Source: a virus
Lineage: Duplodnaviria > Caudoviricetes
Strand: one strand, 5' to 3'
Length of the DNA: 40,863 nt
Virus record (IMG/VR): IMGVR_UViG_3300017766_000521
Coordinates: 1-40,863 of that record
The notes beneath the pieces are model-generated. The model saw only the letters and a program-made list of their open reading frames with translations, did no database searches and was not told the origin of the DNA. A program made the translations under genes and the position numbers. This document shows, piece by piece, positions 3,904 to 28,268 of the stretch. Numbering within the stretch: the stretch's first letter is position 1; each line of letters begins with the position of its first letter.

Positions 3904-5635
3904 TTTTGTATTCTCCGTTTAGAGGGACGTTGATCTTGAAGAACGCGCCAGCTTCCTTGATGCACTCAACAGCCTGCTTGCCGAACTCATCAGCAATGTC
4001 TTGGTCCACCTCGAATTGAACTTCGTCGTGAACCCATGCGAGTTGCTTGGCCTTTCCATGCCATTGCATTTGTGTAAGCATTAGATCAATCTCAACAAGC
4101 CATTGCTTACTGAGCAGACCAGCCGCACTTTGCAGAACGGTGTTTAACGCAGCGTGCTGACTGCGTATGTGCAGGCGGCGACCATCAAGGCCAATCAGGT
4201 ATCCACGACCTGAAGCCTTTTTGATTTTCTCTAGTAGGTCTTCCAGCGCAGGAACCCCCTTGAGAAAACGTCTCCGCAGCTTCTTGCCTACTTCAGCGCC
4301 CCTGCCAACGATGGACCCAATCTTCTCAGGACCAGCGCCGTATAAGAAGGCGTAGATAAAGGTCTTTGCTTGGTTACGTGTCTCCAAGCCTGCGGCCTTC
4401 TGGTTCACCGTATGGATGTCACCTGTGCAAACCTGTTCAGTGTACTCAGGGTCTCCCATAAAGTAAGCCAACATGCGTAGCTCGATGCCTGACATGTCAA
4501 CGCCGACAAGAACCTTGCCTTCAGGGACAACGAACAGGGATCGACATTCTTTACCGTAGGGTGCGCCTACGGCAGGCACCTGAGCCATGTTAGGATTTCT
4601 ATGCGTGGCCCTGCCTGTAACCGCACCGTTAGTAACGACCTCGCCATGTATGCGCTTGGTCTTCTTGTTGACCATCTTCTGCCAACTGTTGTCACCCTCG
4701 GCTAACATGCCTAGACGCTTTTGTACGAGGAAGTATTCGGCTAGGAACTTCGCCTCTGGGTACTCAAGTTTGGACAGGACGGTTTCATCGACCTTGGCAG
4801 ACCCGTCTGGTGTGAACTCAGTGGGATTCCAGTTGTATTTGTCGATGAGACGCTGAGCGATTTGCTTGCGTGATCCTGCGTTAAAGATAACCGTTTTCTT
4901 TCTGAGGATCGGTTGACCTTTAACGTACCCGTATTTCTTGTTGTTGACTTTAGGTACATACTCTTCTTCGATTTCGTAATCAGGGAACACGTCCTTCATT
5001 TTGGCTTCAATCTCAGCCTTGCGCCTTTGAAGCACAGCCGCCAGCTTGTAGGAAGCCTCCTCATCAAAGAGAAAGCCGTTCCTTTCTTGCTGGGCTACAA
5101 TGTGAGCTACTTGATGCTCAAGGACACTAGCCCGTTCAGAATAAGCTGGATGATTTATAAGCGCGTCATGAAGTCTATCAGTGACCTCCGTGTCCCTGAC
5201 GTTGTATTCTAACATCTCTGCCGAATAGGTTTCCCATCCGCCGTCGTAGTTAGCTTTGTGGAAACCGAGACGCTGACCCCACGCTTTCAACGAATGTGAC
5301 CCGATTAGTTTCGGATCGAGAGTTGAAGCCTCCTTGCTGCGATCTTGGTCACTAAGATCAGTGTGTATCAGCCGGGAAAGGATCAGCGTGTCTGTCACAC
5401 GGTTCCTATCAATGTGGAACCATGGATACAGCTTTGTTGCAACGGCGAGGTCATAGCCAATGATGTTATGACCGATGACCTCGCTTGCCTCCATAAGGAA
5501 GCGCAAGCCCTGTTCAACCTGAGAAGGTTCAAACTTGTGAGCCTGCTTTGTATCCTTATCTATCGCCACAATGCAGTGAATGACGCTTGCATCCCAATAC
5601 AGACCATTCGTTTCAATATCGAATACAAGCCTCAT
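3875..5635 (-). CDS. polA: Family A DNA polymerase (T7 gp5-like) with 3'-5' exonuclease
   Basis: ExoI FDIET, HNIIGYD, YNVRD; motif A VDMSGIELR, motif B RNQAKTFIYAFLYGAG, motif C WVHDE. Confidence 0.97.
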   Translation of the reverse strand: MRLVFDIETNGLYWDASVIHCIVAIDKDTKQAHKFEPSQVEQGLRFLMEASEVIGHNIIGYDLAVATKLYPWFHIDRNRVTDTLILSRLIHTDLSDQDRSKEASTLDPKLIGSHSLKAWGQRLGFHKANYDGGWETYSAEMLEYNVRDTEVTDRLHDALINHPAYSERASVLEHQVAHIVAQQERNGFLFDEEASYKLAAVLQRRKAEIEAKMKDVFPDYEIEEEYVPKVNNKKYGYVKGQPILRKKTVIFNAGSRKQIAQRLIDKYNWNPTEFTPDGSAKVDETVLSKLEYPEAKFLAEYFLVQKRLGMLAEGDNSWQKMVNKKTKRIHGEVVTNGAVTGRATHRNPNMAQVPAVGAPYGKECRSLFVVPEGKVLVGVDMSGIELRMLAYFMGDPEYTEQVCTGDIHTVNQKAAGLETRNQAKTFIYAFLYGAGPEKIGSIVGRGAEVGKKLRRRFLKGVPALEDLLEKIKKASGRGYLIGLDGRRLHIRSQHAALNTVLQSAAGLLSKQWLVEIDLMLTQMQWHGKAKQLAWVHDEVQFEVDQDIADEFGKQAVECIKEAGAFFKINVPLNGEYKIGRNWAETH

Positions 5636-9504: not shown

Positions 9505-11955
9505 TTAGGAAAAGAAAAAGTCGGACTCCATCACCCCATCGAGGTCCAAGGAACCAGAGGCGGGGATCGGGTCTAGCTTTTCTTTTACTAGGTCTGGGAG
9601 ACGAGCTTCGAACAGGGCTAACTGGTTCTCCCTGTACATCTCGATGAAAGCGGGCTTAACGCACTCTTTCAGGAAGCGGCTCATGTCACAGGCGTGTACG
9701 CCAAAGCTGTCGTGGATCATCCCGAATGACGTGGTGATCCCGGCAGACATAGCTTTAACCACTGACAACCTAAGTAAGCAGGCGTCATAGCTATGGATGA
9801 AGTTAGGGGCGACGGCTGTAGCCATGTCCCTAGGTTCGAGTTTGTTAGTAGGTTCACGATAGGTTAGCCTGACTCGACCATCCAGATAGGTTGCTACACG
9901 TCCCTCCTTCTCGTTAGGACGATAGTGGATTGCTTCAAACCCGTCAGGCGTGATCCAAGACATGCGTTTGTCATGGGCCGAACCCTCGTTAGCCTTGTTG
10001 ATGTACTTGGTGTACTCGCTGGCTGCTTTGGACAACCACCGCATAGCCTCCTTACCTTTGATAACCGTGTCTTCGATTGCGTCCCAGATCAGTTTAGACA
10101 GGTAGACAATCCGCTCAGTCGGGTCTTCAGTCCCCCATGGACAGGGATGACCATCTTTGAGCTTATCGTTCACAGCCTCACGAGTGTATTCCATGCAGGA
10201 TGAGAAGGTGCCTGCATAAGGTACGACCATGACCTGTCTCTTGGTGGTCTTCCTGTCGATGCCAAAGGTGATCCATTCCTTGTCGAACTTGTGTTCACCC
10301 TTCATCAACACCTCGATCACCCGGTCAGCCACGTCTTGATAGATGTCTTGACGGGGTAAGCCGGGGACAAGATTGACTGACCTCCCCCCTACCTCATCTC
10401 TAAGAAGGGCAGAGTAGTGTTGCAGACCAGAGCAAGTTGCATCCACAGGTGTAACGAAATGGGAAACAAAGCCAAAGCCTGTATCCCAGAAGTCTTTCCA
10501 TTCCTTACAGAAGCGTAAGAATTGGAAAGGCTCAGACGCACTGGTCCAACGAAGGTCAGACCTAGGGTCAGCAGCAATCGAGAAGATCATTTCCTCGTTG
10601 TCTTGAACCCAGTCCACCCGGTCTTGAAGGGCTAGCTTGTCTTTACCGAAAGCGTTAGCCCCAGCTATCGCCAGCCACGCAGCGTCTTCCTCTGTTTGGA
10701 TTGGCTTACCCTCTGCGAACTCTAGCAGAGCCTTTGTGTAGTCCGGTCCTTGCGGGTTGAGGAAGGCTGGGACAGGGTATGCCCTGCCTCTACTGTCTAA
10801 CTGGTGTGGGAAGTAGATCGACTTAAAGTTCTTGAACTGTTTAGCCACGTTGACGGTGGCTAGCATCATCAACCGCTTCGAGATGATCTCTCGATTACGG
10901 CTGTGGATCAGGAAGCACAGACGATCATGGTTATCCCTGATAGCCTCGTCAGTCCTGTAACCCGGAGGTTCATCAGGGATACGCTCCTCGTCTGCACGAG
11001 GTAGACCAGCAAACCCTGCACCCCTCTCATAGATAGCCCAGTCCAAGACATCCAAGACATGTTTGTTCACCCGCCAGCCTGTCTCTTGCAGAGCGTTGAC
11101 GGCGGGAAGAACGGTAGACCAATCCATACCCATCAACCTAGGTATGTCCCGCTTACGGGAACCCTTGATGATGGGGTAACGCCGGATTGACTTGGTAGAC
11201 AGGTATCCACCTCTGAACAGCGTTGTAGTAGTCCAAGCCACAGGCTTAACCACCATTGGCATGTAGATCATGAAGTCGAGGACACGCTTCTCAATAGCCT
11301 CCTCAATCGCCTTCACAAGTGTAGGCACTGGGTCAACAAAGATTGACTGAGGGCCTGTCTGGATTAGCCCTGTGCTGTCCCTGAACAAGAGGAGGAGGGC
11401 GTAGCCCACATGGAGCTTGTCATGGGTTGACCATTGAGACCAATCAAGCTGCTCAGCGTGGAAGTAGTTCATGATGGTTCTGCGTCTCCAGTCCCTAGGG
11501 TAAGTCCTCTTGTCAAAGGTCTGGAACAGCTTCTTTAGGAGGGTCTTCCTCTCCTTGGTCTGGGAGAACGTCCTGATCCTCCACTCGTCATGAATCAGGT
11601 CAGCCGCTCGTATGCACAGGCTTACCCGTTTAACCCGTCTACGGTGGGTTAGCGGGATGAGGTTGTAGAGAGCCTTGGTGAACAGGTGAGCTATCACGGC
11701 AGGCTCTAGACCAGTCTGTCTGAGCTTCTCAGCCGCTCTGTTGTGTCTCCTGCCAAAGGTAGCTGGCTGGTTGAGAAAGGCGTCTACAGCCTCTGCAAAG
11801 GCTCCTGAGGCCTGCCTATGGAAGACAATCCCTAACTTACTCTCTGACCAAGCCTGACGCCTGTTAGCCTTCTCGTTATCCTTAGACACACGAGACTTGG
11901 CTTGCTCTAGGGTCTTTAACTCCAGTTCAAGTTGAGTAGACACAAGGTCTGTCAT
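9505..11955 (-). CDS. Single-subunit DNA-dependent RNA polymerase (T7 gp1-like)
   Basis: DSRGRAY, PVDATCSGLQHY, RKTTKRQVMVVPY, APNFIHSYDA, IHDSFG, C-terminal FFFS. Confidence 0.98.
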   Translation of the reverse strand: MTDLVSTQLELELKTLEQAKSRVSKDNEKANRRQAWSESKLGIVFHRQASGAFAEAVDAFLNQPATFGRRHNRAAEKLRQTGLEPAVIAHLFTKALYNLIPLTHRRRVKRVSLCIRAADLIHDEWRIRTFSQTKERKTLLKKLFQTFDKRTYPRDWRRRTIMNYFHAEQLDWSQWSTHDKLHVGYALLLLFRDSTGLIQTGPQSIFVDPVPTLVKAIEEAIEKRVLDFMIYMPMVVKPVAWTTTTLFRGGYLSTKSIRRYPIIKGSRKRDIPRLMGMDWSTVLPAVNALQETGWRVNKHVLDVLDWAIYERGAGFAGLPRADEERIPDEPPGYRTDEAIRDNHDRLCFLIHSRNREIISKRLMMLATVNVAKQFKNFKSIYFPHQLDSRGRAYPVPAFLNPQGPDYTKALLEFAEGKPIQTEEDAAWLAIAGANAFGKDKLALQDRVDWVQDNEEMIFSIAADPRSDLRWTSASEPFQFLRFCKEWKDFWDTGFGFVSHFVTPVDATCSGLQHYSALLRDEVGGRSVNLVPGLPRQDIYQDVADRVIEVLMKGEHKFDKEWITFGIDRKTTKRQVMVVPYAGTFSSCMEYTREAVNDKLKDGHPCPWGTEDPTERIVYLSKLIWDAIEDTVIKGKEAMRWLSKAASEYTKYINKANEGSAHDKRMSWITPDGFEAIHYRPNEKEGRVATYLDGRVRLTYREPTNKLEPRDMATAVAPNFIHSYDACLLRLSVVKAMSAGITTSFGMIHDSFGVHACDMSRFLKECVKPAFIEMYRENQLALFEARLPDLVKEKLDPIPASGSLDLDGVMESDFFFS

Positions 11956-11986
11956 GTTGACCTACTCCTTTAGACAAGGGTTGGAG

Positions 11987-12217
11987 TAGGTAGACACAGA
12001 TATACCTAGGTTAACTTAAGGTAGACATATATACATACTACATGTAATAGTTGTAGTATATACATAGGTTAACCTAGTTAGACATGGGTATACATTAGTG
12101 TATACATATGTATACATATACTACTACTACATGTTGTATGTAGTAAGGTATACATAAGGTATACATGGTATACATAGGTTAATATAGGTTAACCTAGGTA
12201 TATACTGTGTCTACCTA
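11987..12217. repeat. AT-rich imperfect ~230-bp palindrome built from GTATAC/GTTAAC/CCTAGG/TACAT units
   Basis: Arms 11987-12015 TAGGTAGACACAGATATACCTAGGTTAAC and 12188-12217 GTTAACCTAGGTATATACTGTGTCTACCTA are reverse complements apart from one extra A; inner segments are also roughly complementary. Confidence 0.85.
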
Positions 12218-12233
12218 TTTAAACGGGTGTGTT

Positions 12234-12258: not shown

Positions 12259-12486
12259 CTAATTGATTTCACTTAGGTATGGACTAGACCATAACTCGGT
12301 TAACAGATCGTCTGCCCCGGTGAACAATGTTTCATGAGGTATGATCCGTTCACCCCTGATTTGGACCTGTCTTTCATCTGTCAAGTTGAAGATGAGAAGA
12401 TGGTCTGTCTTGGTTTTAACTAGGGTGACGACCTCTATCCTACGGTTTAGCATAAGTATTGGCAGAAGGTCGATCAGTGCTGCCAT
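12259..12486 (-). CDS. Hypothetical protein between attP and RNAP
   Basis: 75 aa; SD GAGGGGG; preceded by a sigma70-like promoter; an operator-like motif covers the ATG. Confidence 0.55.
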   Translation of the reverse strand: MAALIDLLPILMLNRRIEVVTLVKTKTDHLLIFNLTDERQVQIRGERIIPHETLFTGADDLLTELWSSPYLSEIN

Positions 12487-12537: not shown

Positions 12538-12567
12538 ATGATACCCAGATTAGGAACATGTTAGCAA
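12538..12567 (-). promoter_or_regulatory. Host sigma70-like promoter TTGCTA-N18-TATCAT driving the RNAP operon
   Basis: -35 at 12562-12567 and -10 at 12538-12543; the -10 overlaps motif TACACCGATG at 12531-12540. Confidence 0.5.
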
Positions 12568-12617
12568 CTGTCTTTTTCAGTCAGTTACTTAGTTCCTACG
12601 CTGCTGATATTTATGAG

Positions 12618-12659
12618 GGTTTAGGAAACCGCTGCTCTATCCTGCTGAGCTACGGGACC
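12618..12659 (-). other. attP core: 5' half of tRNA-Arg (anticodon CCT)
   Basis: Minus strand GGTCCCG TA GCTC AGCAGGATA GAGC A GCGGT TTCCTAA ACC gives the acceptor 5' strand, full D arm and anticodon loop; then it diverges, with no T arm or CCA. Lies ~120 bp downstream of the integrase. Confidence 0.88.
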
Positions 12660-12781
12660 GACGCCTCTTCAATCAGTTAGCGCAATGAATGGCCTAGGCT
12701 AGTGCCAGTTCATGGCACAAGATTTGGCACAGGATTCACCCCTTGTCCACGCCTGTTGTGACTCGTTTTGACGATGTTTGC

Positions 12782-13735
12782 TCATTTTGAGTCCAAGGCT
12801 CTGGCTGCTTGTTCCAAGTCACCGGGAGCAAGGCGTGCATAGCGTAGCGTCGTAGTGATGTCGGCATGACCAAGCCAATCCTTCACTCGCCTCAAGTCGA
12901 TGCCTCGCTGCACTAGGCGGCAGGCACAGGTGTGTCGGAGGATGTGCGGGATAACCTGTTTGTCATGGGTGAACCCTGCGGCTTGCTTGGCGTGAGCCCA
13001 GCGTCTGCGAAGGATCGTATAGGTCATATCTGTGAAGGGACCGGCTTGATTGTGCTTATGCGCCCTAGCCCATGCGATAGCCTGTCTGACTGGGGCGGTC
13101 AGAGGGACTGTCCTAGGTTTGCCGCCCTTGGTGATCCAGAAGGTGACACCTTGGTCAGAGATGTCTTGCCAGTGTAGGCGGAAGGCTTCTCCATAGCGGC
13201 AACCTGTGTAGAGCAAGAAGCGGCAGAAGTGGTAAGCCTCCTCGTCCATCTGTGAGAACAGGCGTAGCTCCTCGTCTTCAGTGAGAAACCTGATGCGTCC
13301 TTCGTCCTTCTGCGGGTTCAGGATGATCTCAGGCAGAGAGGTGAGCAGGCGTTGACGCTTGGCTAGCTTGAGGAGCTTGGAAAGCCGGGTGAGCTTGTTG
13401 TTGATGGTCTGGTCAGCCTTACCTTCACGTCTGTAATCATTGACCAAATGATCTATCACTCGCTCGTCTATTTTATAGACAGGGAGGGAGTAGCCAATCC
13501 GGTTGATGAGGTCTTTAGTGATGGACCTAGCACCGTCGTAGTCTTTTGTGTTTGACCACAACTCAGCACACAGGTTAGGGAACAGCCTGCCTATGCTAGA
13601 CTCATCCCTAGCCTTCATGTGAGCAGCGTTCCGCTCAAAGGCTATCGCCTCTGCCTCGGTGTTGAACTGAGGTCTGATGCGTTTGCCATCGACAACGCAG
13701 TCAGCCTGCCACTTATCGCCTCTGCGTCTAGCCAT
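12782..13735 (-). CDS. int: Tyrosine recombinase / phage integrase
   Basis: YTGCRYGE (R), TKGGKPR (K), HILRHT (HxxR), LGHADITTTLRY (H,Y); N-terminal arm-binding-like domain. Start at ATG 13735. Confidence 0.96.
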   Translation of the reverse strand: MARRRGDKWQADCVVDGKRIRPQFNTEAEAIAFERNAAHMKARDESSIGRLFPNLCAELWSNTKDYDGARSITKDLINRIGYSLPVYKIDERVIDHLVNDYRREGKADQTINNKLTRLSKLLKLAKRQRLLTSLPEIILNPQKDEGRIRFLTEDEELRLFSQMDEEAYHFCRFLLYTGCRYGEAFRLHWQDISDQGVTFWITKGGKPRTVPLTAPVRQAIAWARAHKHNQAGPFTDMTYTILRRRWAHAKQAAGFTHDKQVIPHILRHTCACRLVQRGIDLRRVKDWLGHADITTTLRYARLAPGDLEQAARALDSK

Positions 13736-14081
13736 TGTTACGCTTGCCTCCCATAGCCTCACGCAAGCCATCCACGAAGGATCGACCTGTCTTGGTCAGG
13801 GTCAAGATACGGTATCGCCGGTCAGCCGGGTCTTCGACACGGGTCACGAAGTTCTTACCCGGCTTCTTGTCGAACCTGATGTCAGCCCAGTAGGAGATGT
13901 TTCTAGAGGCGCTGGCATTGGTTAGGCCCAAGCCATCCTCCAGTTCCTTCTGGGTACACGAGCCCCGAACAGCCACGAACAGGATTGCTCGCAGGGTTTG
14001 AATTGGTATCTCATTGTCAACAGTTTCACTGATGTAACCTAGGGCGCTCTCTAGCCCCACGATTGTACCTGAGTTGCTCAT
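13728..14081 (-). CDS. MarR-family winged-HTH regulator, probable repressor
   Basis: TQKELEDGLGLTNASASRNI helix-turn-helix and EDPADRRYRILTLTKTG wing; coupled to int. Confidence 0.85.
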   Translation of the reverse strand: MSNSGTIVGLESALGYISETVDNEIPIQTLRAILFVAVRGSCTQKELEDGLGLTNASASRNISYWADIRFDKKPGKNFVTRVEDPADRRYRILTLTKTGRSFVDGLREAMGGKRNNG

Positions 14082-14271: not shown

Positions 14272-14300
14272 TAATTAGCCTTACACACAGGTGTAGTCAA
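14272..14300 (-). promoter_or_regulatory. Host sigma70-like promoter TTGACT-N17-TAATTA with paired operator-like motifs
   Basis: -35 at 14295-14300 and -10 at 14272-14277; motifs at 14286-14295 and 14303-14312. Confidence 0.6.
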
Positions 14301-15010: not shown

Positions 15011-15874
15011 TTAGGCGGCGAGCTTCTCAGGCTCAGCAAGCGCAAGGCTGCGGAGATATTCAACCGCCGCGCTCGCTTTGCTAGCAGCGGTGACGAAAGC
15101 GCGTGGATCGTCACGCAACAGACTGATCCAGTTGTCTACATAGGCAGCGTGGCGAGTGGTTGCGTCATAACCAAACTCGGCACACATGAAGGCAGCGCCA
15201 AGCTCAGCGACTAGTTCTTCCGCTGCGTAGGCACGATCCCCGAACCGCTTACCAAACTGGCGATTGCAGCGGCTCTCAGCGCCTGACCAGTGAACCAATT
15301 CATGGAGGGCGGTTCCGTAGTAGCCGTCAGCCGATTGAAAAGAGTCGTAGTTAGGCAGCATGATGAAGTCGCCCGCCGTGGTGTAATAGGCACGCGCCTC
15401 GCCGTGCTTAATGACAGCGCCTGTTGATGCGAGGAAGGCGTCGCAATCCTCATTGCGCTGGTCCAAGTTAACCGGTGCTGGCTTGTCCTGAAGATGGTCA
15501 ATCCCATCACACTGCGCCACGTTAAAGACAGTGAACGACTTGAGGAAGGGTATGCGCTGCATCTCGCCTGTTTGTTCATCCTTCTTGTCGAAGGTGCTGG
15601 CGTATATAACCTGCGTCCCCTTCTCGCCTTTCCGCACGGTGCCGCCCGCTTCCTGAGCTTGCTTGAAGGTGAGCCACTTCGACGTGGTATAGCCACGCTC
15701 TTCAGCCGTGAGCCAAAGCAACACAACGTTTGCACCACTGTAAGCACGGCTTGAGACTGCATTGCGAGGCATACCGCCTGAGCCAATGGTAGACCAAGGC
15801 TTGGTCCAAGGCATGACGCCTTGTTCCATGGCGGCGAGGATACGATCGCTAACTTCTTTGTGAATGTTACGCAT
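15011..15874 (-). CDS. ardC: ArdC-like antirestriction protein (ssDNA-binding DUF1738 plus zincin-like domain)
   Basis: PWTKPW, YSGAN, WLTFKQA...VRKGEKG, FTVFNVAQCDG, HELVHW (HExxH), YAAEELVAELGAAF; SD GGAGG 8 nt before ATG 15874. Confidence 0.92.
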   Translation of the reverse strand: MRNIHKEVSDRILAAMEQGVMPWTKPWSTIGSGGMPRNAVSSRAYSGANVVLLWLTAEERGYTTSKWLTFKQAQEAGGTVRKGEKGTQVIYASTFDKKDEQTGEMQRIPFLKSFTVFNVAQCDGIDHLQDKPAPVNLDQRNEDCDAFLASTGAVIKHGEARAYYTTAGDFIMLPNYDSFQSADGYYGTALHELVHWSGAESRCNRQFGKRFGDRAYAAEELVAELGAAFMCAEFGYDATTRHAAYVDNWISLLRDDPRAFVTAASKASAAVEYLRSLALAEPEKLAA

Positions 15875-15900
15875 GGTCATTACCTCCATATGTGTAAGCG

Positions 15901-16052: not shown

Positions 16053-16112
16053 AACTTACACACATGCAGGGATCAGGTCAATAGAAAAAATTCAGAAAAG
16101 CAAAAAATATTT
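16053..16112 (-). promoter_or_regulatory. Major early host promoter TTGACC-N17-(TG)TAAGTT with A/T-tract UP element
   Basis: -35 at 16076-16081, -10 at 16053-16058, T-tracts at 16082-16112; motif TACACACATGCA at 16057-16068 overlaps the spacer and -10. Confidence 0.72.
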
Positions 16113-16790
16113 CAGGCTCAGGCGTAACCGTGTTTGCCAGTGTGAACGTATATGAACGGGCGCGCGCGTATAGTCTATCCGTTACAGAGATGCAAGCATT
16201 ATTTCATAGCCAAGTTTAAAATACCATACTACAGACAAGCCCAAGCATATAAAGCTTCGCTTATGTCCGCCATGGTTCAGCCCGTGCCTACACGGTACAG
16301 CCTAAGCGACCCTCGGTTTCAAGAACCGTGCAAACAGGTGATAACGTGTTGATCTAATTGTAGAAACCCACCGTTGTGCCGTCTAGCCGTGCCATCCCAT
16401 GGTAAAGATCGTGTTAGCCCATGGTGTAGGCCAAGAAAAATCACGACCGGGACCATGGCATACGGGGGAAACTTGGCCTGCGCCGCTTAGCGCAAGGTTC
16501 TCAGATTTTTGCCAGAAATCTGTTCACCCCTCTCTAACCCCTCCTAACCCCCTCAAACCCTCCCTAACCCTCTCTAACCCCTCTCTAACCCCCTCAAACC
16601 CTCCCTAACCCCCTCAAACCCTCCCTAAGCCCCGTATAGCCCTATAGAGCCCCGTACAGCCCTGTCCTAACCCTATGGCACCCTAGGTAGCCCCAAGCCA
16701 ACAAAGGGCGTGTACGGGCTTCCTAGGGGCCTTAGCGTGGATTTAACTGGGTAGACGCTAGTTTGTCCATAGACGGACGCTAGTAGGTCT
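16113..16790. other. Non-coding genome-end junction (expected position of the direct terminal repeat and packaging signals)
   Basis: Lies between the last late gene (phoH) and the first early promoter, as in T7-like genomes. Only one copy is present, so repeat boundaries cannot be seen. Confidence 0.6.
16527..16694. repeat. Phased C-run array (CCCTCYCTAA/CCCCCTCAAA-like units, ~10-11 bp period)
   Basis: About 17 consecutive units each starting with a C3-5 run; no G on the plus strand from 16523 to 16628. Confidence 0.9.
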
Positions 16791-17567
16791 TCAGACAGAC
16801 GCTGTGAACCCCATGCTAGGCTGGTCTAACCCTGCCTCAACCGCATCCTCAAAGTCGGTGAACGCCTCTGCCCACAGCTTGCAGATGCCTGATCGCACCA
16901 CGTCTTCATTGGTGAACTCAATGACAGGCACTGGGAGGTCCAGATGTTCAACCATGGCTAGCACTGCGGCTAACCCGCATGAACCCTCGTCTTCCAGTTT
17001 AAGATCGGTCTGCCTGATGTCACCATTGACGATGACTTTTGAGCCTTCGCCAATACGGGTTAGGAACATCTTGATCTGGGAGTAGGTGGTGTTCTGAGCC
17101 TCGTCTAGAAAGATGAGAGCCCGGTCAAACGTGCGTCCCCTCATGTAGGCGATAGGGGCGATCTCGATCTGCCCTTCGCTCATCGCCTGTCTAAACCTGT
17201 CTTTACCCAGTCTCTTCTGCATGACCTCGGTGAACGGGACCACCCATGGGGCGATCTTTCTACCTATGTCACCCGGTAGAAACCCGTGTTCCTCGTCTAC
17301 GCCAATGGCAGGTCGGGTTAGAACGATCTTCTCGATCTTGCCTTCCAGTAGTAGGTCAGCAGCAACAGTAGCCGCTATGAACGTCTTGCCAGTACCGGCT
17401 GGACCTAGGGTGAACACTTGGTCTCCCTTGAGGATAGCCCGGATATACTCGGCTTGACGCTTGTTGAGGGCCTTTAGAGGCTCCCGTACTGGCTCCTCTC
17501 TGGGCCTCTTAGGGAGGTTAGAGAAGCGGTGTGGGGGACGTTTAGCCTTCTTGGAAGCCCTCGCCAT
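16791..17567 (-). CDS. phoH: PhoH-family ATPase
   Basis: GPAGTGKT, LTRPA, GFLPGD, YMRGRTF, DEAQN, KMFLTRIG, GDIRQTD, DVVRSG. Confidence 0.95.
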   Translation of the reverse strand: MARASKKAKRPPHRFSNLPKRPREEPVREPLKALNKRQAEYIRAILKGDQVFTLGPAGTGKTFIAATVAADLLLEGKIEKIVLTRPAIGVDEEHGFLPGDIGRKIAPWVVPFTEVMQKRLGKDRFRQAMSEGQIEIAPIAYMRGRTFDRALIFLDEAQNTTYSQIKMFLTRIGEGSKVIVNGDIRQTDLKLEDEGSCGLAAVLAMVEHLDLPVPVIEFTNEDVVRSGICKLWAEAFTDFEDAVEAGLDQPSMGFTASV

Positions 17568-17939
17568 TCACTTTGCTCCACGCTCGATGACGTAGAGGGT
17601 CACACTTTCAGGACCAAAGAACTCAGAGATGGTCTCCATGACCACACTGGTGTCAAAGGACTTGCAGGAGAAGACATCAATATAGGCTTCCCCAGTAACG
17701 TCTACGAAGTGAGCGCAGATATTCGAGGTCTCAATCAGTTGAACAAGGGTATACCCAGCCTTACCGGGGTCATGCTCAGCGAAATGGACAGCGGTAGGCT
17801 CTCCATATGCCTTCATGTCGATCCGTTTGACCAGTTCTTTGGAGAACGCTTTGATATGTTCACCATCAGTGATCTTGGTTTTGTCACAGCCAGCGCAGTC
17901 AAATGCAGCGTGGTATCCCCAAATGTATTTTTTAGACAT
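17568..17939 (-). CDS. speD: Pyruvoyl-dependent S-adenosylmethionine decarboxylase-family proenzyme
   Basis: GYHAAFDCAGCD, GYTLVQLIETSNICAHF (self-cleavage region), AYIDVFSCKSFD, FGP, IERG. Confidence 0.85.
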   Translation of the reverse strand: MSKKYIWGYHAAFDCAGCDKTKITDGEHIKAFSKELVKRIDMKAYGEPTAVHFAEHDPGKAGYTLVQLIETSNICAHFVDVTGEAYIDVFSCKSFDTSVVMETISEFFGPESVTLYVIERGAK

Positions 17940-21603: not shown

Positions 21604-24222
21604 TTAGGCGATAGCTAGGTAGATATAAGAAGCACCGTTTGTATTGGTGTTTTTGCCGAGATCAGAAGCGCCACCACTAACTTGGTTGACAATGAACCCG
21701 GAAGAGGTCAGGTCAATCGAGTCGGTTGTAGTGGTCTGTGCAGCAGCACGGTTGAAAGCTAATGCGGGATCGCTTGCTGCTACAATACCTCTGGCTGTGT
21801 CAAAAACCATCCAATCGCCGGTGCTGTCAGAACGCTTTATGAGAACAAAGCGCGCGCCGTTAGAGAACCCACAGTCAATCGTCTGTGACGTTCCATTGCC
21901 TGTGTAGGAGCCAACCTTACTTACGCCTGCCACTGACGCAAATAGGTAAGCCACATAGTTAATCCCAGTAGCATTATTGATACCGTAGTCACCAGCAACA
22001 CCAACATAAAACGATGAAGAAGTTGCCGTCGAGTTGCCCCATATGCTCGACGTGTCTGATGCGTTTGAAAGGTTCAGGTACAGCGTTTTATTGTTTCCAA
22101 GCGCAGCGGAGTAAACAGGCCAGTTTGTAGCATCGTTCCTTGCTTTAACAATCAAAAGTTCTGGAGACGTGCCTAGGTTATGTGCTACAGCGCGCGCTGA
22201 TGTACTGTTTCCTGAGTAGCACACAACGTCAAAGAAGCCGGGGGAACGACGGAAGCTCCACGAAATATGTGGAGAACTTCCATCGTTTGTTGCACCTGCA
22301 TTGCTCGGACCAAGAATAAAACCGGTGTTGGAATAGCCGGTCACATCTCCGGTGCTTCCAACTGATGCGCTTGTAGAGTTTGTGTAGAGAACTTCTTTGC
22401 CACGTAGTTTATCTTGCGAAACAAGCCAGTCGCCGGAATTGGTACGACAAATAATCTGAGCATCGTTTGCAAAACCGGTCGTGATTGCGAGCGTGGTGTT
22501 AGTGCCAGTATAAGTTACCGGTGCAAACACACTCGTCCCGCTCGTCGGCGTCCGCATCGGGCCACGGCGGATGGCGATGTAAACCCAAGTGCCGGTCGTG
22601 CCATTCAACTGAAATCCGGTTGGAGATATATTGATATTGAAAGTTGTATTTGTCTCAGCCGTGGTACTGTTCCAGAGGATATATGGAGCGCCTGAAGCAG
22701 AGGACGACGAAGCGTCTGTGCCTACAACTCCTCTCATATTATCAATTACGAACCAGTTACCAGTAGTAGACGAAGGCTTCAAAAGGAGCCATTGCGGCTC
22801 ATAACCGAGCGTTACGGTTGGAGCGCCAGTAAACGACCCACACGTAATCACATTGTCGGAACCAGAGTTTCCAAAACCACCGGCATCGTGCGCAAACACA
22901 TAAGCGACGTAGTTAGTGCCGTTCTGGTTCAGCGTCGTCGTCGCAACATAGAAGTCTGTCGCGGTCGGAGACGTGCTTCCCCAAATAGTTGTGGTTGCCT
23001 GAGCGCCAGTGCCGGAAAGGCGCATGAATTGCGTGGCAGGCGTCGTCATTCCGCGATGGTACACGTACCAGTCGGAGCCACCCGGAGCAGTGCCGGAATA
23101 GTATTTAACAATGATGCAACCCGGCGTTGAGCCAAGGCTGTGGGGGATCGCACGAGCGCCTGCTGCACCGTTGCCTGTATACGTCACAACGTCAAAGAAC
23201 TTCGCCTGCTTGCGGAAGGTCCATGAGGCGTAAGTGTACGTGTTAGTGTTTACTGCACCGTCAACACCAACAGAAAACCCATTTCCATTAAATGCCGAAA
23301 GGTAGTCCGTTATGCTATATGCTTGGGAGGCTGTTGTGTCGCTTCTCAGCCTGTTTCCAGCGCCTCTAGCAGTGTCGTGCCACATAGGCTCAGAACCTAT
23401 GTTTCGACCTTTGATAACTACAAGACCACCTTTGCCAGAACCATCATTAAAAGGTCCAAAGGTGTCACTTGCTACCGTGCCTACCTTAGTTATCGTAAGG
23501 TTATTCCCTGAGTTATCTACAAAGGGAGTAGCGCCTTGTAGCGTTAAAAGGGAGGTTCCAGAAACTGCCGTTAAAGCGGCTGTTGGCGCAGTGAAATTGC
23601 CTGTGTAAAGCGCCGTGCCTTTAACAACACGGAAATTGGATATGTATGCGTGAGAGTTGTTACCGCCGTTAGCATAAGCCCCAATGATCATCGGAGAGGA
23701 TGTCACAAGGAAAGGGGCCTCGCTGGAGGTGACAGTCGTACCTACCTGAACGCCGTTCACAAAACAGCGAACGGAAGTACCAGATTTTGTGAGAGCGATG
23801 TGATACCAAGTGTTTAAAGCTAGGGTACAACTAAAATTGAACTGTGCTCCAGAACCCGGCTGATACTCAAAATTAGTTCCAGAACTGCGTGGGCCAAAAT
23901 AGTTATTTACACTCGTACTGCCAAACAAGTTGTTGAGACTGTTCCAAGCATTGAAATATGCGAAACATTCAACAGTCCAGTTAACAGAGTTGAGATCAAG
24001 AACAGACCCTGATGCTGCCGGTACGCTTACATAGCAGTTGTTGCTATTATCAAAGAGTGCCGATCCGCCCCCATTTGAGCCAAGAGCTATTCCGTTTTTG
24101 ATCGTCTGAGGAGTTCCGGTTCCAGTGTATAAGCTGGTAGCAAATACGTCCTCAATATAAGCACCGGGGGTTGCCGCAGTCACAGCACCGGCAGCACCCA
24201 TCAGAATGTCATGCGCTGCCAT
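21604..24222 (-). CDS. Tail fibre / receptor-binding protein with LamG-like domain and repeated YTGNG modules
   Basis: WTVECFAY...WYHIALTKSG...FVNG...YISNFRVVKG; repeated FFDVV.Y.GNG...HSLG..P modules; YIYLAIA end. Confidence 0.8.
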   Translation of the reverse strand: MAAHDILMGAAGAVTAATPGAYIEDVFATSLYTGTGTPQTIKNGIALGSNGGGSALFDNSNNCYVSVPAASGSVLDLNSVNWTVECFAYFNAWNSLNNLFGSTSVNNYFGPRSSGTNFEYQPGSGAQFNFSCTLALNTWYHIALTKSGTSVRCFVNGVQVGTTVTSSEAPFLVTSSPMIIGAYANGGNNSHAYISNFRVVKGTALYTGNFTAPTAALTAVSGTSLLTLQGATPFVDNSGNNLTITKVGTVASDTFGPFNDGSGKGGLVVIKGRNIGSEPMWHDTARGAGNRLRSDTTASQAYSITDYLSAFNGNGFSVGVDGAVNTNTYTYASWTFRKQAKFFDVVTYTGNGAAGARAIPHSLGSTPGCIIVKYYSGTAPGGSDWYVYHRGMTTPATQFMRLSGTGAQATTTIWGSTSPTATDFYVATTTLNQNGTNYVAYVFAHDAGGFGNSGSDNVITCGSFTGAPTVTLGYEPQWLLLKPSSTTGNWFVIDNMRGVVGTDASSSSASGAPYILWNSTTAETNTTFNINISPTGFQLNGTTGTWVYIAIRRGPMRTPTSGTSVFAPVTYTGTNTTLAITTGFANDAQIICRTNSGDWLVSQDKLRGKEVLYTNSTSASVGSTGDVTGYSNTGFILGPSNAGATNDGSSPHISWSFRRSPGFFDVVCYSGNSTSARAVAHNLGTSPELLIVKARNDATNWPVYSAALGNNKTLYLNLSNASDTSSIWGNSTATSSSFYVGVAGDYGINNATGINYVAYLFASVAGVSKVGSYTGNGTSQTIDCGFSNGARFVLIKRSDSTGDWMVFDTARGIVAASDPALAFNRAAAQTTTTDSIDLTSSGFIVNQVSGGASDLGKNTNTNGASYIYLAIA

Positions 24223-25670
24223 TACTTAACGTCCTTACCCAAGACCAACCCAGTCCACGTCGTGCCACCATCGTGTGTGAAGAAGCCCAACACGTCTCTA
24301 CCCGATGCAGTCAGGGTAGGAGCAGTGCCAGACGCCCACTTCATGCCTGACCACCAAGTGATCGTTGCCGATCCACCGTTGGTAAGATCAAGGATGAACG
24401 AGGCTGACGTGCCAGTAGATGGGACGTTAGACACGGTTAGCGTCGTTGCGCCTGAGATCGTCTTGGTGAAGTAATTGCCAGACGACAGGTTCACATCGTT
24501 AGCGCCCATGGCTACACGGGTCTCAAACAGGGCTACCGTGGTAAGCGTCTTGCCAGTGACCGTCTGCGTACCCGTAAGGGTCACAGTGGTCGAGATGGGA
24601 GCATAGGTAGACGCTGCGTTAGCCGTCGTAAGATACGAGGACATACCCGCTTGCGTCTGATAGGTGGAAGACGCTGTGGCTGACGTGAGGTAAGCCGACA
24701 TGCCAGCCTGTGTCTGATAGGTAGACGAGGCGCTAGCCGTAGTTAGGTAGGTAGACGAGGCGTCTGCCGTGGTCAGATACGAGGACATGCCTGAGATTGG
24801 CTGATAGGTAGACGAGGCGTTAGCCGTAGTCAGATACCCGGCAGAAGCGTGGTTGCCCCATCCATACGCTGTATCCCAGTTTGTGACCTTGGTAGACGTG
24901 ATGCCAGCCGCAGGGCTAGCCGAGAACACAGGGTCAGCCTCGGTGAACGAGGTGAGATAGGTGTTAGTATCGAGTGACCAAGTGTTGGCAGCGGTCTTCT
25001 TGAGTAGACCAGAGGTGCCAGCAAGGCCAGCAATAGCGGTTAGATCAGCGTCAGCATCCTGCTTACCAGACAGGAACGTGTCTACCTCAGTCTCAGTGTA
25101 GTACCGGCTGTCGTGGTCGTGGCCTACGTTGGCGAAGTCAGTAATGGACGCAAAGCTGTCCTTGATGAGCTTACCAGTGCTACCATCGAACAGCACAATG
25201 TTGCCATTGGTGGCTGAAGAGGGACCAGTAACGTCACCAGCGCCTGACCCGGATGCACCAGTCGGGCCTTTAATGTTAGCGATGGGTGAACCCCATGCGC
25301 CAGAAACTTTCTCATATACGTCACCAGTGGACGTATTCAGGTAGAGGTCGCCGTTGACCCCTGTACCGGCAGACGGAGCGCCTGAGCCGGTGTACCACTT
25401 CTCGCCGTTAGCCCCGGCAGGCCCTGTAGGCCCTTGTGGACCCTGTGGACCAGTAGCCCCAGTGGCACCCGCAGGACCAGTAGCCCCTGTAGGACCGGCA
25501 GGCCCCTGTGGACCTGTGCTACCGAGGATTTCAACCACAGAGCCAGCGGCGTTCTTCGTGTAAATCTTCTTATCGGTCAGGTTGACCGCAAGCTCGCCAA
25601 CATCAAGCTGACCGGCTGTAGGAGCCTTGCCAGCGACGGACGAACGCTTCAGTTGGATTTTGGTAGGCAT
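24222..25670 (-). CDS. Tail fibre protein with Mtd-like N-terminus, collagen-like region and YLTT repeats
   Basis: [13 protein letters not shown]...[13 protein letters not shown]; ~13 G-X-Y triplets; five YLTTA.ASSTY-like repeats. Confidence 0.8.
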
Positions 25671-25688
25671 TATGTAATCCCCTTAATG

Positions 25689-25714
25689 AAAAGGGGAGAG
25701 CTAATGCCCTCCCC
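25689..25714 (-). terminator. Intrinsic terminator
   Basis: GGGGAGGGC-ATTA-GCTCTCCCC-TTTT. Confidence 0.7.
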
Positions 25715-25720
25715 GTGTAT

Positions 25721-25942
25721 TTAATATTCACCACCGTCAACCGAGGTGATCGCCGCTGCTTCCAGCGTGTCCACTCGTGTGTCGAGGGTGTTAATCTGCG
25801 TCTGCAATCCAGACACAGCGCCTGCACCTGTATCCTCAAAGGCGAACGTGTTGTTACCTTTGAAGACCAGCGATTTATTGATGTCAGCCGTGGTAGGCTC
25901 AGGTATACCCTTGACTTGTGTAATGCGAACTTCGGTAGGCAT
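25721..25942 (-). CDS. Small virion-associated protein
   Basis: Coiled-coil LQTQINTLDTRVDTLE and DGGEY end, typical of fibre adaptors. Confidence 0.65.
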   Translation of the reverse strand: MPTEVRITQVKGIPEPTTADINKSLVFKGNNTFAFEDTGAGAVSGLQTQINTLDTRVDTLEAAAITSVDGGEY

Positions 25943-26259
25943 CAGGCACCTCCCTTCGGGTAAGCATCCTTGACGCTCTGAACCTCATCAAGCCAAGCGA
26001 GCGTATCCGCAGGGATAACGATCCCTTGGGAGTGGAGAGCCTTGGCTAGCTTGAAGATAGCATCAAGCTGATCCCCAGTCGGAGGATAGGCTTTCATGCG
26101 GTTGTAGGAGTAGTTGAACTCAGGTTCATCGACTGCCTGTTCAACAATGCCCTCAACCACGGTTTCATTCTGGTTAGCCTGTAGAGCAAGGGTTTCAGGG
26201 AGACAGGTTCCATATCGGACCACCTGTCCAGCCTGATTAAGGACGGTGAACTCGATCAT
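25942..26259 (-). CDS. Putative tail fibre chaperone
   Basis: Y..NR.KAYP..GDQLDAI...W......VK..YPK motif; follows the fibre gene. Confidence 0.65.
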   Translation of the reverse strand: MIEFTVLNQAGQVVRYGTCLPETLALQANQNETVVEGIVEQAVDEPEFNYSYNRMKAYPPTGDQLDAIFKLAKALHSQGIVIPADTLAWLDEVQSVKDAYPKGGA

Positions 26260-28268
26260 CGTTTCGTCTCCAAGAATACCATGTTAGCTGTGCGTACCCC
26301 GTTTTGACTGGTTGAGCGCAGTTGGAACGAGAGGGTCTGGTTACCGGATGAAACACCTGTGAACATGGCTACATACGAGTAACAGAGCGCACCGGAGTCG
26401 ATCAGGGTTAGACCTTCCAAGCTGGAAGACTGACCGCCTAGCGTGATGCGAACGTCCTGACCCGTGTAGTAATTGTTCACGTACCAGTATTGACCGTTTT
26501 CATAGATGTCATAGCCACTACTAGAGGCCAGACGCTGGTTAGGAGCAATCCATGTCACGATGACAATGACCGGCTGTGTGCCAGAGACGTTAACAGTGCC
26601 AGACAGGTAGGTGTTGTAGCTACCGTTCACCGCTTCAACAGCGGGGGTCTTGGTGAAGGACTGGGCCTGCGTGACCGCATTGCCAGCAATCTTCAACGTG
26701 GTGATGTTAGCGTCAGCGATCTGAGCCGTGCCAATGAGTACTTCGTTTGCAGCCAGCTTATCCGCTGTGATAGCCCCAGAGGCGATCTGAGAGGCTCCAA
26801 TAGCGCCTGCCTGAATCTTACCGGCAGTAATAGCGTTAGCAGCAATCTTATCGCTGGTGACGGCGTCTGAGGCGATCTTAGCAGCCGTTACGGCCAGTGC
26901 AGTGATCTTCTCAGAGGTGACAGAACCAGCGGCTAGCTTGTCTGTGCTAATGGCTCCAGAGGCGATCTCAGAGGCGCTAATAGCCCCCGCAGCGATCTTA
27001 CCAGCAATCACTGAGTTAGCAGCGAGGAGGTTAGCCCCAATCGTACCAGTTAAATCAGAGGTAGCTACGCCAGTGACGAAGTTAGTCCCGTCATACCGAT
27101 AGAGCTTATCGTCAGTGGTCAGGTAAACCAGTCTACCCTCCACGTTACCCGTGGTAGGCAGGGTGTTGACGATCTCTACCGGGCGGATACCCTGTGCGAA
27201 CTTGGCGGTCGTGATTGACCCGTCAGCAACAGTAGCCGCAGCGCCAGTAGCAGCCGCAACCTCTGTCCACGCACCGTTAACCCGCTTGTAGAGCTTGTTG
27301 TCAGCCTGATTGAACACCACGTCGCCATCGGTAGCCGTGGCAGGCAGGGTGTTGACGATCTGGATAGCATCAGGTGCAGCCGGGGTATACGCAGCGAAAA
27401 TGTCTACGTAAGACCCGTTCTCACAGATGTAGAGCTTGCCGTCAGTGGTGTTGTAGATCGGCTTACCAGAGATCGAGCAAGAGGTAGGCGTAGAGGTAAC
27501 GATGTCTATGCCAGAGGTGTTGCTTGTTCCACCCGTGCCACCAGTCGAGTTAACCCACTGTGTGCCGTTGTAGACGAGGGTTTGGCCGTTGGTTGGCGAG
27601 CTAATGGTGACATCATCAAGCTCGTTGAGGATAGTAGCACCAGTGCCAGACCCGCCTCCACCACTGCCACCACCGTATGCACCGTCATAGAAACGGATGA
27701 ACTGGAGTTTAGCATTGTCAGCCGCTCTAGGAGCCTCGACAAAGGTGATGTTAGCAATGCCGCTAGCAATGCCTATCGAGTAGTCAGTACCCGGTTCAAG
27801 GTCGATACCATTGAGGGACACGTTCCACAGCCCGGGGTCATAGATTTTAGTACCTAGGTTAGCCCCACCGCTATCCAGTCGGAACGTCTTAGTGACGCCG
27901 TTGAACAGCGATTCAATACTGGAGATGTCATAGATACGCGCATAGACGGTCCCAGTACGGTCAATGGCTTCCTGTACGGCATAACGAAGCTGATCGAGTG
28001 ATTTGTTAATGGCGTCTCCCGTGTAGGAAGAACCATTCTGAAACACGACAGCCGGGTTAGTGATGCTAGTGCGACGTTCAACGGTAAGCGTGTCGCCTAC
28101 GTCTACAGGCGCACTAACACGAACAATGTTAGGACTAAGGAAGACAAAGGAAACGGGACCATTCTGCCTCGTGACAACAACGTCTTCCTGCTTCAAATAA
28201 GAAAACGGGATGGCAAAGTCTGTAGTGCTGCCATCACCGTTATAAGTGATGTATGTGTTGTAAGACAT
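26256..28268 (-). CDS. Tail fibre (T7 gp17-like N-terminal anchor)
   Basis: YNGDGSTTDFAIPFSYL...V.V...RRT...F..GS...Q..YAVQE; later IV.TLP...KLY repeats and 10-aa AIT.DKIA repeats. Confidence 0.9.
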   Translation of the reverse strand: MSYNTYITYNGDGSTTDFAIPFSYLKQEDVVVTRQNGPVSFVFLSPNIVRVSAPVDVGDTLTVERRTSITNPAVVFQNGSSYTGDAINKSLDQLRYAVQEAIDRTGTVYARIYDISSIESLFNGVTKTFRLDSGGANLGTKIYDPGLWNVSLNGIDLEPGTDYSIGIASGIANITFVEAPRAADNAKLQFIRFYDGAYGGGSGGGGSGTGATILNELDDVTISSPTNGQTLVYNGTQWVNSTGGTGGTSNTSGIDIVTSTPTSCSISGKPIYNTTDGKLYICENGSYVDIFAAYTPAAPDAIQIVNTLPATATDGDVVFNQADNKLYKRVNGAWTEVAAATGAAATVADGSITTAKFAQGIRPVEIVNTLPTTGNVEGRLVYLTTDDKLYRYDGTNFVTGVATSDLTGTIGANLLAANSVIAGKIAAGAISASEIASGAISTDKLAAGSVTSEKITALAVTAAKIASDAVTSDKIAANAITAGKIQAGAIGASQIASGAITADKLAANEVLIGTAQIADANITTLKIAGNAVTQAQSFTKTPAVEAVNGSYNTYLSGTVNVSGTQPVIVIVTWIAPNQRLASSSGYDIYENGQYWYVNNYYTGQDVRITLGGQSSSLEGLTLIDSGALCYSYVAMFTGVSSGNQTLSFQLRSTSQNGVRTANMVFLETKR

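What the first reader, a model, noticed from the sequence alone, without database searches (positions are those of the whole stretch)
12538..12781. Reverse-type attP: phage carries the 5' half of tRNA-Arg(CCT), so integration would swap promoters
Seen: 42 nt matching tRNA positions 1 through the anticodon arm, co-directional with int and RNAP; the match stops just after the symmetric GGTT-TCCTA-AACC anticodon region. Known: tyrosine integrases often cross over in the anticodon loop but usually restore the 3' half; 5'-half restoration is uncommon (E. coli DLP12 at argU is the case I recall). Inference: after integration the intact tRNA would sit downstream of int and be transcribed from phage DNA (the repressor-int operon, or a weak CTAGCC-N17-TAACTG candidate at ~12675-12703). 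The host tRNA promoter would then fire through a half-tRNA toward the lytic RNAP gene. Integration would also detach RNAP from the major early promoter at 16053-16081.
Basis: partly seen in the sequence, partly recalled or inferred. Interest (0 to 1): 0.8.

Follow-up and report, generated by a model that had tools for sequence, protein, structure and literature searches.

The report
Phage attachment site repairing host tRNA
This freshwater T7-like phage carries an exact copy of the first 42 bases of a bacterial arginine tRNA gene between its integrase and RNA polymerase genes, likely the site it uses to insert into that gene and repair it; this kind of site is already described in T7-like marine phages and is probably not a new switch.

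Summary
Observation confirmed: window 12618-12659 (-) is identical to nt 1-42 of a Hyphomicrobiales tRNA-Arg(CCT) (116 of 120 metagenome matches are whole tRNAs), placed between an intact tyrosine integrase and the RNAP of a MarR-int-RNAP T7-like phage. No junction of this phage was found. A related prophage (G526, tRNA-Tyr) shows the predicted layout: host side + 5' half + RNAP at one end, int + intact tRNA at the other. The layout is published: pelagiphage attP sites lie between int and RNAP and several restore the tRNA 5' end, tRNA-Arg included, with PCR-confirmed junctions (bioRxiv 10.1101/410191). It is common in this clade (15 of 49 spacers), though rare among integrases overall. The DLP12 precedent is wrong (ordinary 3' type). 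The host promoter probably does not drive RNAP: 3 of 3 tRNA-type attL junctions carry a hairpin plus U-tract about 70 nt past the core, and a close relative uses the opposite orientation. The window's hairpin sits at that position but lacks the U-tract, so leak is not excluded. The proposed weak promoter is unsupported and overlaps an IHF-like site. This scan reported the same thing before on other DNA (e1-8235422). New member of a known kind.

The parts
16053..16081 (-). Candidate early sigma-70 promoter (TTGACC-17-TAAGTT, T-rich upstream); untested
   Evidence: Sequence; 8 of 12 consensus matches, below the scan threshold
15011..15889 (-). ArdC-like anti-restriction early gene
   Evidence: PHROG 7245; PF08401 + PF18818
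14272..14300 (-). Candidate promoter for the marR-int transcript (TTGACT-17-TAATTA); shares TGTGTGTAAG with the 16081 candidate; inferred
   Evidence: not found by the consensus scan
13728..14081 (-). MarR-type HTH regulator, likely repressor
   Evidence: PF12802 28.7 bits over cut-off 27; PHROG 9665
12782..13771 (-). Tyrosine integrase (aligned start at Met13, about 13735), catalytic R192, K215, H276, R279, H302, Y311 present
   Evidence: PHROG 1 E 1e-53; PF00589; alignment of 35 homologues
12702..12731 (-). Likely arm-type Int sites: two direct TGTGCCA repeats (12725-12731, 12713-12719) and an inverted copy at 12702-12707
   Evidence: kept in L002; similar repeats beside cores of L084, L087, L089; role inferred
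12667..12679 (+).
   Evidence: (D13); kept in L002
12618..12659 (-). attP core region: nt 1-42 of tRNA-Arg(CCT); 7-nt anticodon loop at 12621-12627 is the likely crossover
   Evidence: shared sequence narrows to the loop plus 1 nt in prophage G408
12551..12598 (-). Hairpin ending 67 nt past the core, no U-tract; contains a second IHF-like site (12576-12587)
   Evidence: -18.5 kcal/mol, z -5.4 on 12548-12600; terminator scans negative; weaker in L002 (z -0.9)
12259..12486 (-). 75-aa ORF of unknown function between attP and RNAP
   Evidence: homologues in L002 (55%), L084, L086; no Pfam/PHROG hit; no usable Atlas hit
11971..12224 (.). AT-rich array of short palindromes directly upstream of RNAP; operator array or origin, untested
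   Evidence: similar arrays in L002, L084, L086, L107, G526
9505..11955 (-). T7-like RNA polymerase
   Evidence: PHROG 414 E 1e-206; best named hits 35-39%

Best explanation
The 42 bases are an exact copy of the 5' half of a Hyphomicrobiales tRNA-Arg(CCT) gene and likely form the core of this T7-like phage's attP, where the integrase would cross over in the anticodon loop and the copied half would rebuild the host tRNA downstream of int. Shown here: the match, the intact integrase, the int-core-RNAP order, and the same layout in related prophages. Inferred: crossover in the 7-nt loop; the rebuilt tRNA is cut from the marR-int transcript, which already runs across the core in the free phage; the host tRNA promoter is left in front of a dead half-tRNA and is mostly stopped or stalled by the hairpin about 70 nt further on; RNAP is held off by the MarR-type repressor at its own upstream region, and integration also moves it about a genome length from the early promoters. 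The 5' half is a repair piece, not a regulatory device.
For: Exact match to whole host tRNAs that stops 3 nt past the loop; neighbours name Methylocystis, Rhodoblastus, Phreatobacter. Core invariant in relative L002 while flanks drift. 15 of 49 distinct int-RNAP spacers carry a sense 5' half, of Arg, Trp, Gln, Tyr or Leu tRNAs, ending at nt 36-43. Prophage G526 (RNAP 53% identical): host + 5' half tRNA-Tyr + terminator + RNAP, and int + intact tRNA-Tyr, each across a 95-nt contig overlap. G392 and G408 have the same orientation but replace the tRNA with a whole phage copy. The same tRNA-Arg(CCT) is entered this way by an unrelated 15-kb element in G634. Hairpin + U-tract 69-74 nt past the core in 3 of 3 tRNA-type attL. 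LUZ100: most marR-int transcripts end at T4 (PMC10134795 passages), and a loop-sized tRNA-Leu core lies between int and T4. Pelagiphage junctions PCR-confirmed; int and attP both required in S-TIP37.
Against: No attL or attR of this phage in contigs of 4 of 13 holding runs, and no T7-like prophage at tRNA-Arg(CCT) among the genomes searched. The window's hairpin has no U-tract; 11 of 21 regions scanned have no terminator, and shuffles gave one in 28 of 168 (5 of 8 for G392), so single calls are weak. 28 of 49 spacers show no tRNA fragment against a 98-gene library. No RNA data. T7-like cyanophages integrate without stable lysogeny.
Confidence: 0.78

Rival explanations
1. Promoter-swap switch: after integration the host tRNA promoter reads through the half-tRNA, the hairpin and the 75-aa ORF into RNAP, tying induction to host tRNA-promoter activity.
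For: Orientation is right (G526, G392, G408). Host tRNA-Arg genes have a strong -10 motif 10-12 nt upstream in 45 of 109 distinct upstream regions. The window's hairpin lacks a U-tract. A host tRNA promoter drives int in integrated ICEKp1, attenuated by stem-loops (PMC13023037 abstract). Some LUZ100 transcripts read through T4.
Against: U-tract hairpins follow the core in 3 of 3 tRNA-type attL. L086 (RNAP 59% identical, shares the 75-aa ORF and the array) carries the 3' half in antisense, so no tRNA promoter would face its RNAP. G773 is integrated with no tRNA fragment detected upstream of RNAP. About 660 nt with a hairpin, an ORF and a palindrome array separate core and RNAP.
Confidence: 0.1
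2. The site is a working attP but integration is rare and transient, without stable lysogeny, so neither promoter rearrangement matters for regulation.
For: S-TIP37 and P-SSP7 integrate at low frequency with no stable lysogens (PMC8776855 passages); no stable LUZ100 lysogen; no junction in 4 runs.
Against: Related prophages sit in assembled genomes of the family that also has this tRNA (G526, G408, G773) and in G392; a MarR gene is present.
Confidence: 0.2
3. The phage supplies a dedicated promoter for the rebuilt tRNA at 12675-12703.
For: The element is there and its -10 part is kept in L002.
Against: 2 of 6 matches in each hexamer; 1.8 bits on the host matrix against a host median of 8.4, with 31% of random windows as high; the kept part is an IHF-like motif repeated on the other arm.
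Confidence: 0.12
4. The fragment is not an att site but a relic of a phage tRNA gene or an expressed tRNA-half RNA with its own role.
For: Some relatives carry whole tRNAs at this place (4 of 49).
Against: 100% identity to bacterial tRNA ending just past the loop, flanking arm- and IHF-like repeats, halves of five different tRNAs ending at about the same place in relatives, and real junctions in G526.
Confidence: 0.03

Closest known systems
HTVC019P-type pelagiphage attP sites (Zhao et al., bioRxiv 10.1101/410191; section 11 read whole, other passages; supplement Fig. S2 not seen)
   Same: attP in the non-coding region between integrase and RNAP; attB in tRNA genes; phage supplies the tRNA 5' end (HTVC021P, 022P, 109P; HTVC120P at tRNA-Arg); others carry a whole replacement tRNA; MarR gene in the figure key.
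   Different: Junctions there were sequenced; here none. Host here is a high-GC Hyphomicrobiales bacterium, not SAR11; int about 32% identical to HTVC200P/119P. The preprint has no occurrence of 'promoter', so it does not discuss the transcriptional consequence.
T7-like cyanophage attP (P-SSP7, S-TIP37; PMC8776855, passages)
   Same: Perfect match to part of a host tRNA gene downstream of int (42 bp in P-SSP7); int and attP needed for integration.
   Different: tRNA-Leu target; integration without stable lysogeny; the passages seen do not say which tRNA half.
Pseudomonas phage LUZ100 lysogeny module (PMC10134795, passages; record OP329100)
   Same: MarR-int operon followed by terminator T4 and RNAP; a loop-sized tRNA core lies between int and T4 (my reading).
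   Different: Carries a whole antisense tRNA-Leu between marR and int instead of a 5' half; T4 has a U-tract; a phage promoter precedes RNAP; no AT-rich palindrome array seen.
ICEKp1 promoter switching (PMC13023037, abstract only)
   Same: Integration places element DNA under a host tRNA promoter, damped by stem-loops.
   Different: There int follows the tRNA and is the gene driven; here int is at the far end and RNAP faces the host promoter.
E. coli DLP12 at argU (record NC_000913.3; PMC2951348 section 11)
   Same: Tyrosine integrase at a rare-codon tRNA-Arg, prophage edge inside the tRNA gene.
   Different: argU is intact under its own upstream DNA with intD convergent: ordinary 3' type, not a precedent.

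Membership tests
attP of temperate T7-like (Autographiviridae) phages, pelagiphage/cyanophage type | T7-like genome with single-subunit RNAP and T7-like replication and virion genes | tested here: met
   (RNAP, SSB, endonuclease, primase/helicase, DNA polymerase, tail tubular, capsid)
attP of temperate T7-like (Autographiviridae) phages, pelagiphage/cyanophage type | Intact tyrosine integrase, with a MarR-type gene upstream | tested here: met
attP of temperate T7-like (Autographiviridae) phages, pelagiphage/cyanophage type | Core lies in the non-coding region between int and RNAP and is identical to part of a host tRNA gene | tested here: met
attP of temperate T7-like (Autographiviridae) phages, pelagiphage/cyanophage type | attL/attR junctions of this phage at the core | tested here: inconclusive
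   none in contigs of 4 runs or in the genomes searched; seen only for relatives at other tRNAs
attP of temperate T7-like (Autographiviridae) phages, pelagiphage/cyanophage type | Int- and attP-dependent recombination; stable lysogeny | not testable with these tools
   needs host and phage in culture
Lambda-type attP anatomy (recalled) | Arm-type repeats and IHF sites flanking a 7-bp overlap | tested here: inconclusive
   repeats on the int side and 7-of-9 IHF-like sites on both arms, 3 hits in 350 nt against 0.6 expected from the window's rate; RNAP-side arm repeats not pinned down; binding untested
tRNA-promoter switching (ICEKp1 type) | Host tRNA promoter transcribes an element gene after integration | not testable with these tools
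   no RNA reads available; sequence evidence in relatives points against
Intrinsic terminator after the core (LUZ100 T4 type) | Hairpin followed by a U-tract | tested here: not met
   hairpin present but no U-tract in the window; met in G526, G392, G408
DLP12/argU type | Same geometry as DLP12 | tested here: not met
   DLP12 is convergent 3' type

The most novel reading that the evidence does not exclude
In this sub-lineage (window and L002) the post-core terminator has lost its U-tract and become an attenuator, so that in the lysogen the host tRNA-Arg promoter feeds the 75-aa ORF and RNAP at a level set by host growth state, while the host's AGG-reading tRNA depends on the prophage's repressor-integrase operon: a two-way promoter exchange that couples induction to host physiology.
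Probability: 0.08. Interest if true: 0.65.

Novelty: new member of a known kind. Interest (0 to 1): 0.22.

Why it matters
As it stands it is an ordinary member of a published class and mainly gives a host hint (Hyphomicrobiales; Methylocystis-type methanotrophs are among the bacteria with this exact tRNA, but so are several other genera). The comparison adds one small point: these phages use three ways to replace the tRNA they break (5' half in attP, whole tRNA after int, whole antisense tRNA before int), and the prophage junctions seen put a terminator-like hairpin between the orphaned host promoter and RNAP. Who transcribes the rebuilt tRNA was not addressed in the papers seen and is testable. 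If the host promoter did drive RNAP it would be a new induction input for T7-like prophages.

Tried and rejected
Megablast of window 1-25000 against phage records: no match; blastn of the att region found only unrelated tRNA fragments. The integrase scan of genome contigs returned 80 loci of another element, mostly Mesorhizobium, none with RNAP; these were not used. RNAP scan of viral contigs gave only 3 already-known records. No RNA holder listed. Read laying on 4 of 13 holding runs, contigs only: no joint; loose ends at the core came from other bacteria's tRNA genes matching the core alone; contigs show presence, not absence. The Rfam mir-306 and sR3 hits are chance. My first terminator script found 4 of 22 short regions and missed G392 and G408 because it stepped lengths by two; I loosened it. 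G153 (2 RNAP hits without int or tRNA nearby), G711 (two integrases, unclear element), G375 (partial RNAP, not examined) and G515 (whole contig in free-phage order) were left out of the attL count; G773 has no tRNA fragment and was read by eye only. No repeated phage-promoter consensus was found by 12-mer counting. The 75-aa ORF as an excisionase: no support from PHROGs, Pfam or the Atlas. Two literature searches worded for 5'-end or reverse integration and the tRNA promoter returned 0 papers; some searches gave the papers cited. Williams 2002 was not held. An earlier count said 114 of 120 whole tRNAs; the correct reading is 116 of 120.

Full report
Observation. The window is a near-complete virus record with a T7-like gene set on the minus strand. 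In order: ArdC-like early gene, MarR-type regulator 13728-14081 (PF12802 over cut-off), tyrosine integrase 12782-13771 with all six catalytic positions present, an 826-nt spacer, RNAP 9505-11955. The 42-nt fragment lies at 12618-12659, co-directional. ARAGORN finds no whole tRNA in the window. The exact 42-mer was found in 120 fetched metagenome loci; 116 of 120 are whole tRNA-Arg(CCT) genes, 3 are cut by the locus end, 1 is a half, and all 120 continue with G where the phage has C. Identity thus covers the acceptor 5' strand, D arm, anticodon 5' strand, the 7-nt loop (12621-12627) and 3 nt more. A close relative, L002 (int 72%, RNAP 83%), has the same 42 nt with drifting flanks.

Host. The tRNA is not general in Alphaproteobacteria (2 of 401 sampled genomes within 2 mismatches) but common in one family (117 of 401 within 1 mismatch of the first 39 nt). 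Neighbouring proteins of 7 of 10 queried ORFs were found; named clusters are Methylocystis, Rhodoblastus, Phreatobacter and unassigned Hyphomicrobiales. The phage DNA is held by freshwater metagenomes (5 runs with half the words or more, one possibly the source). The host is therefore probably a Hyphomicrobiales bacterium; the tRNA cannot narrow it further.

Anatomy. On the int side are two direct TGTGCCA repeats and an inverted copy (12702-12731), and both arms hold a 12-nt repeat that fits the IHF consensus (recalled) at 7 of 9 positions. A matrix built from 109 distinct host upstream regions (consensus TGTGCTAAAT, 10-12 nt before the tRNA in 45 of 109) scores the phage's upstream region 1.8 bits against a host median of 8.4; 31% of random windows score as high. 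On the RNAP side a hairpin (12551-12598, z -5.4) ends 67 nt after the core and has no U-tract. Then come a conserved 75-aa ORF and an AT-rich palindrome array directly before RNAP.

Relatives. Of 90 phage loci examined, 60 have int followed by RNAP, giving 49 loosely distinct spacers. 15 carry a clear sense 5' half (Arg, Trp, Gln, Tyr, Leu; 10 of the 15 are similar tRNA-Leu loci of one more distant group), 1 more is weak, 4 carry a whole tRNA, 1 (L086) carries a 3' half in antisense, and 28 show nothing against a 98-gene library. So the 5'-half form is the usual tRNA fragment in this clade, and a close relative uses the other orientation.

Natural prophages. RNAP searches hit 5 of 401 genomes of the host family and 3 of 401 of the class. 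G526 (RNAP 53%, int 38%): host DNA, 5' half of tRNA-Tyr, hairpin with U-tract, ORF, RNAP; and int followed by an intact tRNA-Tyr and host DNA; each junction spans a 95-nt contig overlap. G392: host promoter, 5' half of tRNA-Leu(CAA), terminator, RNAP; at the far end int, a whole phage tRNA-Leu(CAA), the core and the orphan host 3' half. G408: the same left end; the shared sequence is only the loop plus 1 nt, which pins the crossover to the anticodon loop; a whole antisense tRNA-Leu lies between regulator and int. In G392 and G408 RNAP and int are about 37-39 kb apart on one contig. G773 is integrated with no tRNA fragment detected. An unrelated 15-kb element in G634 enters tRNA-Arg(CCT) itself in the same reverse way, and four metagenome loci show integrase-like ORFs just upstream of an intact copy. 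No T7-like prophage at tRNA-Arg(CCT) and no junction of this phage was found.

Does the host promoter reach RNAP? A hairpin plus U-tract ends 69-74 nt past the core in 3 of 3 tRNA-type attL junctions and is found in 10 of 21 regions scanned; it is missing in the window and in 10 distant tRNA-Leu loci, and shuffles gave a call in 28 of 168, so the common position carries more weight than any single call (an earlier stricter script found fewer). In LUZ100 most marR-int transcripts end at T4 just after int, with some read-through (PMC10134795 passages); I find a loop-sized tRNA-Leu core between int and T4. That supports both inferred steps: the phage operon transcript crosses the core, so it would supply the rebuilt tRNA, and a stop signal lies between core and RNAP. 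The position recalls lambda's tI/sib beyond att (recalled, not tested). L086 and G773 show that the RNAP layout does not need a tRNA promoter. The window's missing U-tract leaves leak possible.

What is known. Zhao et al. (bioRxiv 10.1101/410191, section 11 read whole) report 12 pelagiphage attP sites, all between int and RNAP, several complementing the tRNA with a phage-derived 5' end, including tRNA-Arg (HTVC120P), with junctions confirmed by sequencing and PCR; their Fig. S2 could not be seen. Cyanophage attP sites are tRNA-Leu matches downstream of int, required for integration but without stable lysogeny (PMC8776855 passages). DLP12 is not a precedent: argU 564723-564799 is intact, the prophage begins inside it and runs downstream, intD is convergent (classed as convergent). 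Promoter capture at tRNA genes is known for ICEKp1 (abstract). MarR repression of RNAP is a published hypothesis cited in the LUZ100 paper (its ref. 14, not read). The pelagiphage preprint never uses the word promoter and two searches for the promoter consequence returned nothing; subscription papers are not covered. Earlier notes of this scan describe the same kind of site on other DNA.

Verdict. Real, correctly located, very likely a working attP (about 0.93 for that step alone), and a new member of a published kind. The promoter exchange follows from the geometry but most likely has no regulatory role for RNAP. Interest 0.22.

Noticed in passing
window 11971-12224: Dense AT-rich array of 6-12-nt palindromes just upstream of RNAP, also in L002, L084, L086, L107 and G526 but not seen in L085 or L089; L107 keeps it with no tRNA core. 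Operator array or replication origin.
   Followed up: partly
window 12259-12486 (-): 75-aa ORF between attP and RNAP, homologues in L002, L084, L086; no family; would sit first in the prophage after attL.
   Followed up: partly
window 14280-14289 and 16055-16064 (-): The 10-mer TGTGTGTAAG occurs only in the two early promoter candidates; TTACACATATG precedes the ArdC gene and the 75-aa ORF and occurs twice in L084. Possible regulator site.
   Followed up: partly
L086 spacer (after int stop at 4084): Close relative (RNAP 59%) with the 3' half of tRNA-Leu(TAA) in antisense: the same integrase clade uses both orientations.
   Followed up: partly
G408:C13 114900-156800, G392:C9 33200-74300, L325: Three ways of replacing the broken tRNA: 5' half in attP, whole tRNA after int, whole antisense tRNA between marR and int (G408 and LUZ100).
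   Followed up: yes
G634:C1 337438-352565; L257, L263, L179, L243, L265, L421, L423: tRNA-Arg(CCT) of Hyphomicrobiales is a frequent target of unrelated elements, several in the 5'-restoring orientation.
   Followed up: partly
L102 spacer: Two copies of the tRNA-Leu(TAA) 5' half about 890 nt apart between int and RNAP, as if a cassette were inserted at attP.
   Followed up: no
L004-L083: A related integrase (about 40%) is widespread in Mesorhizobium about 2.8 kb from tRNA-Ser(GCT), with no RNAP nearby.
   Followed up: no
window 16540-16660; 16791-17939; 21604-28268: Short tandem repeats near the probable genome ends; PhoH and SAM decarboxylase genes after terminase; three large tail-fibre-like genes.
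   Followed up: no
G711:C30 37800-47400: Small element with an integrase-like gene, RNAP and a second integrase followed by the 3' part of tRNA-Arg(TCT); possibly an RNAP-carrying satellite.
   Followed up: no
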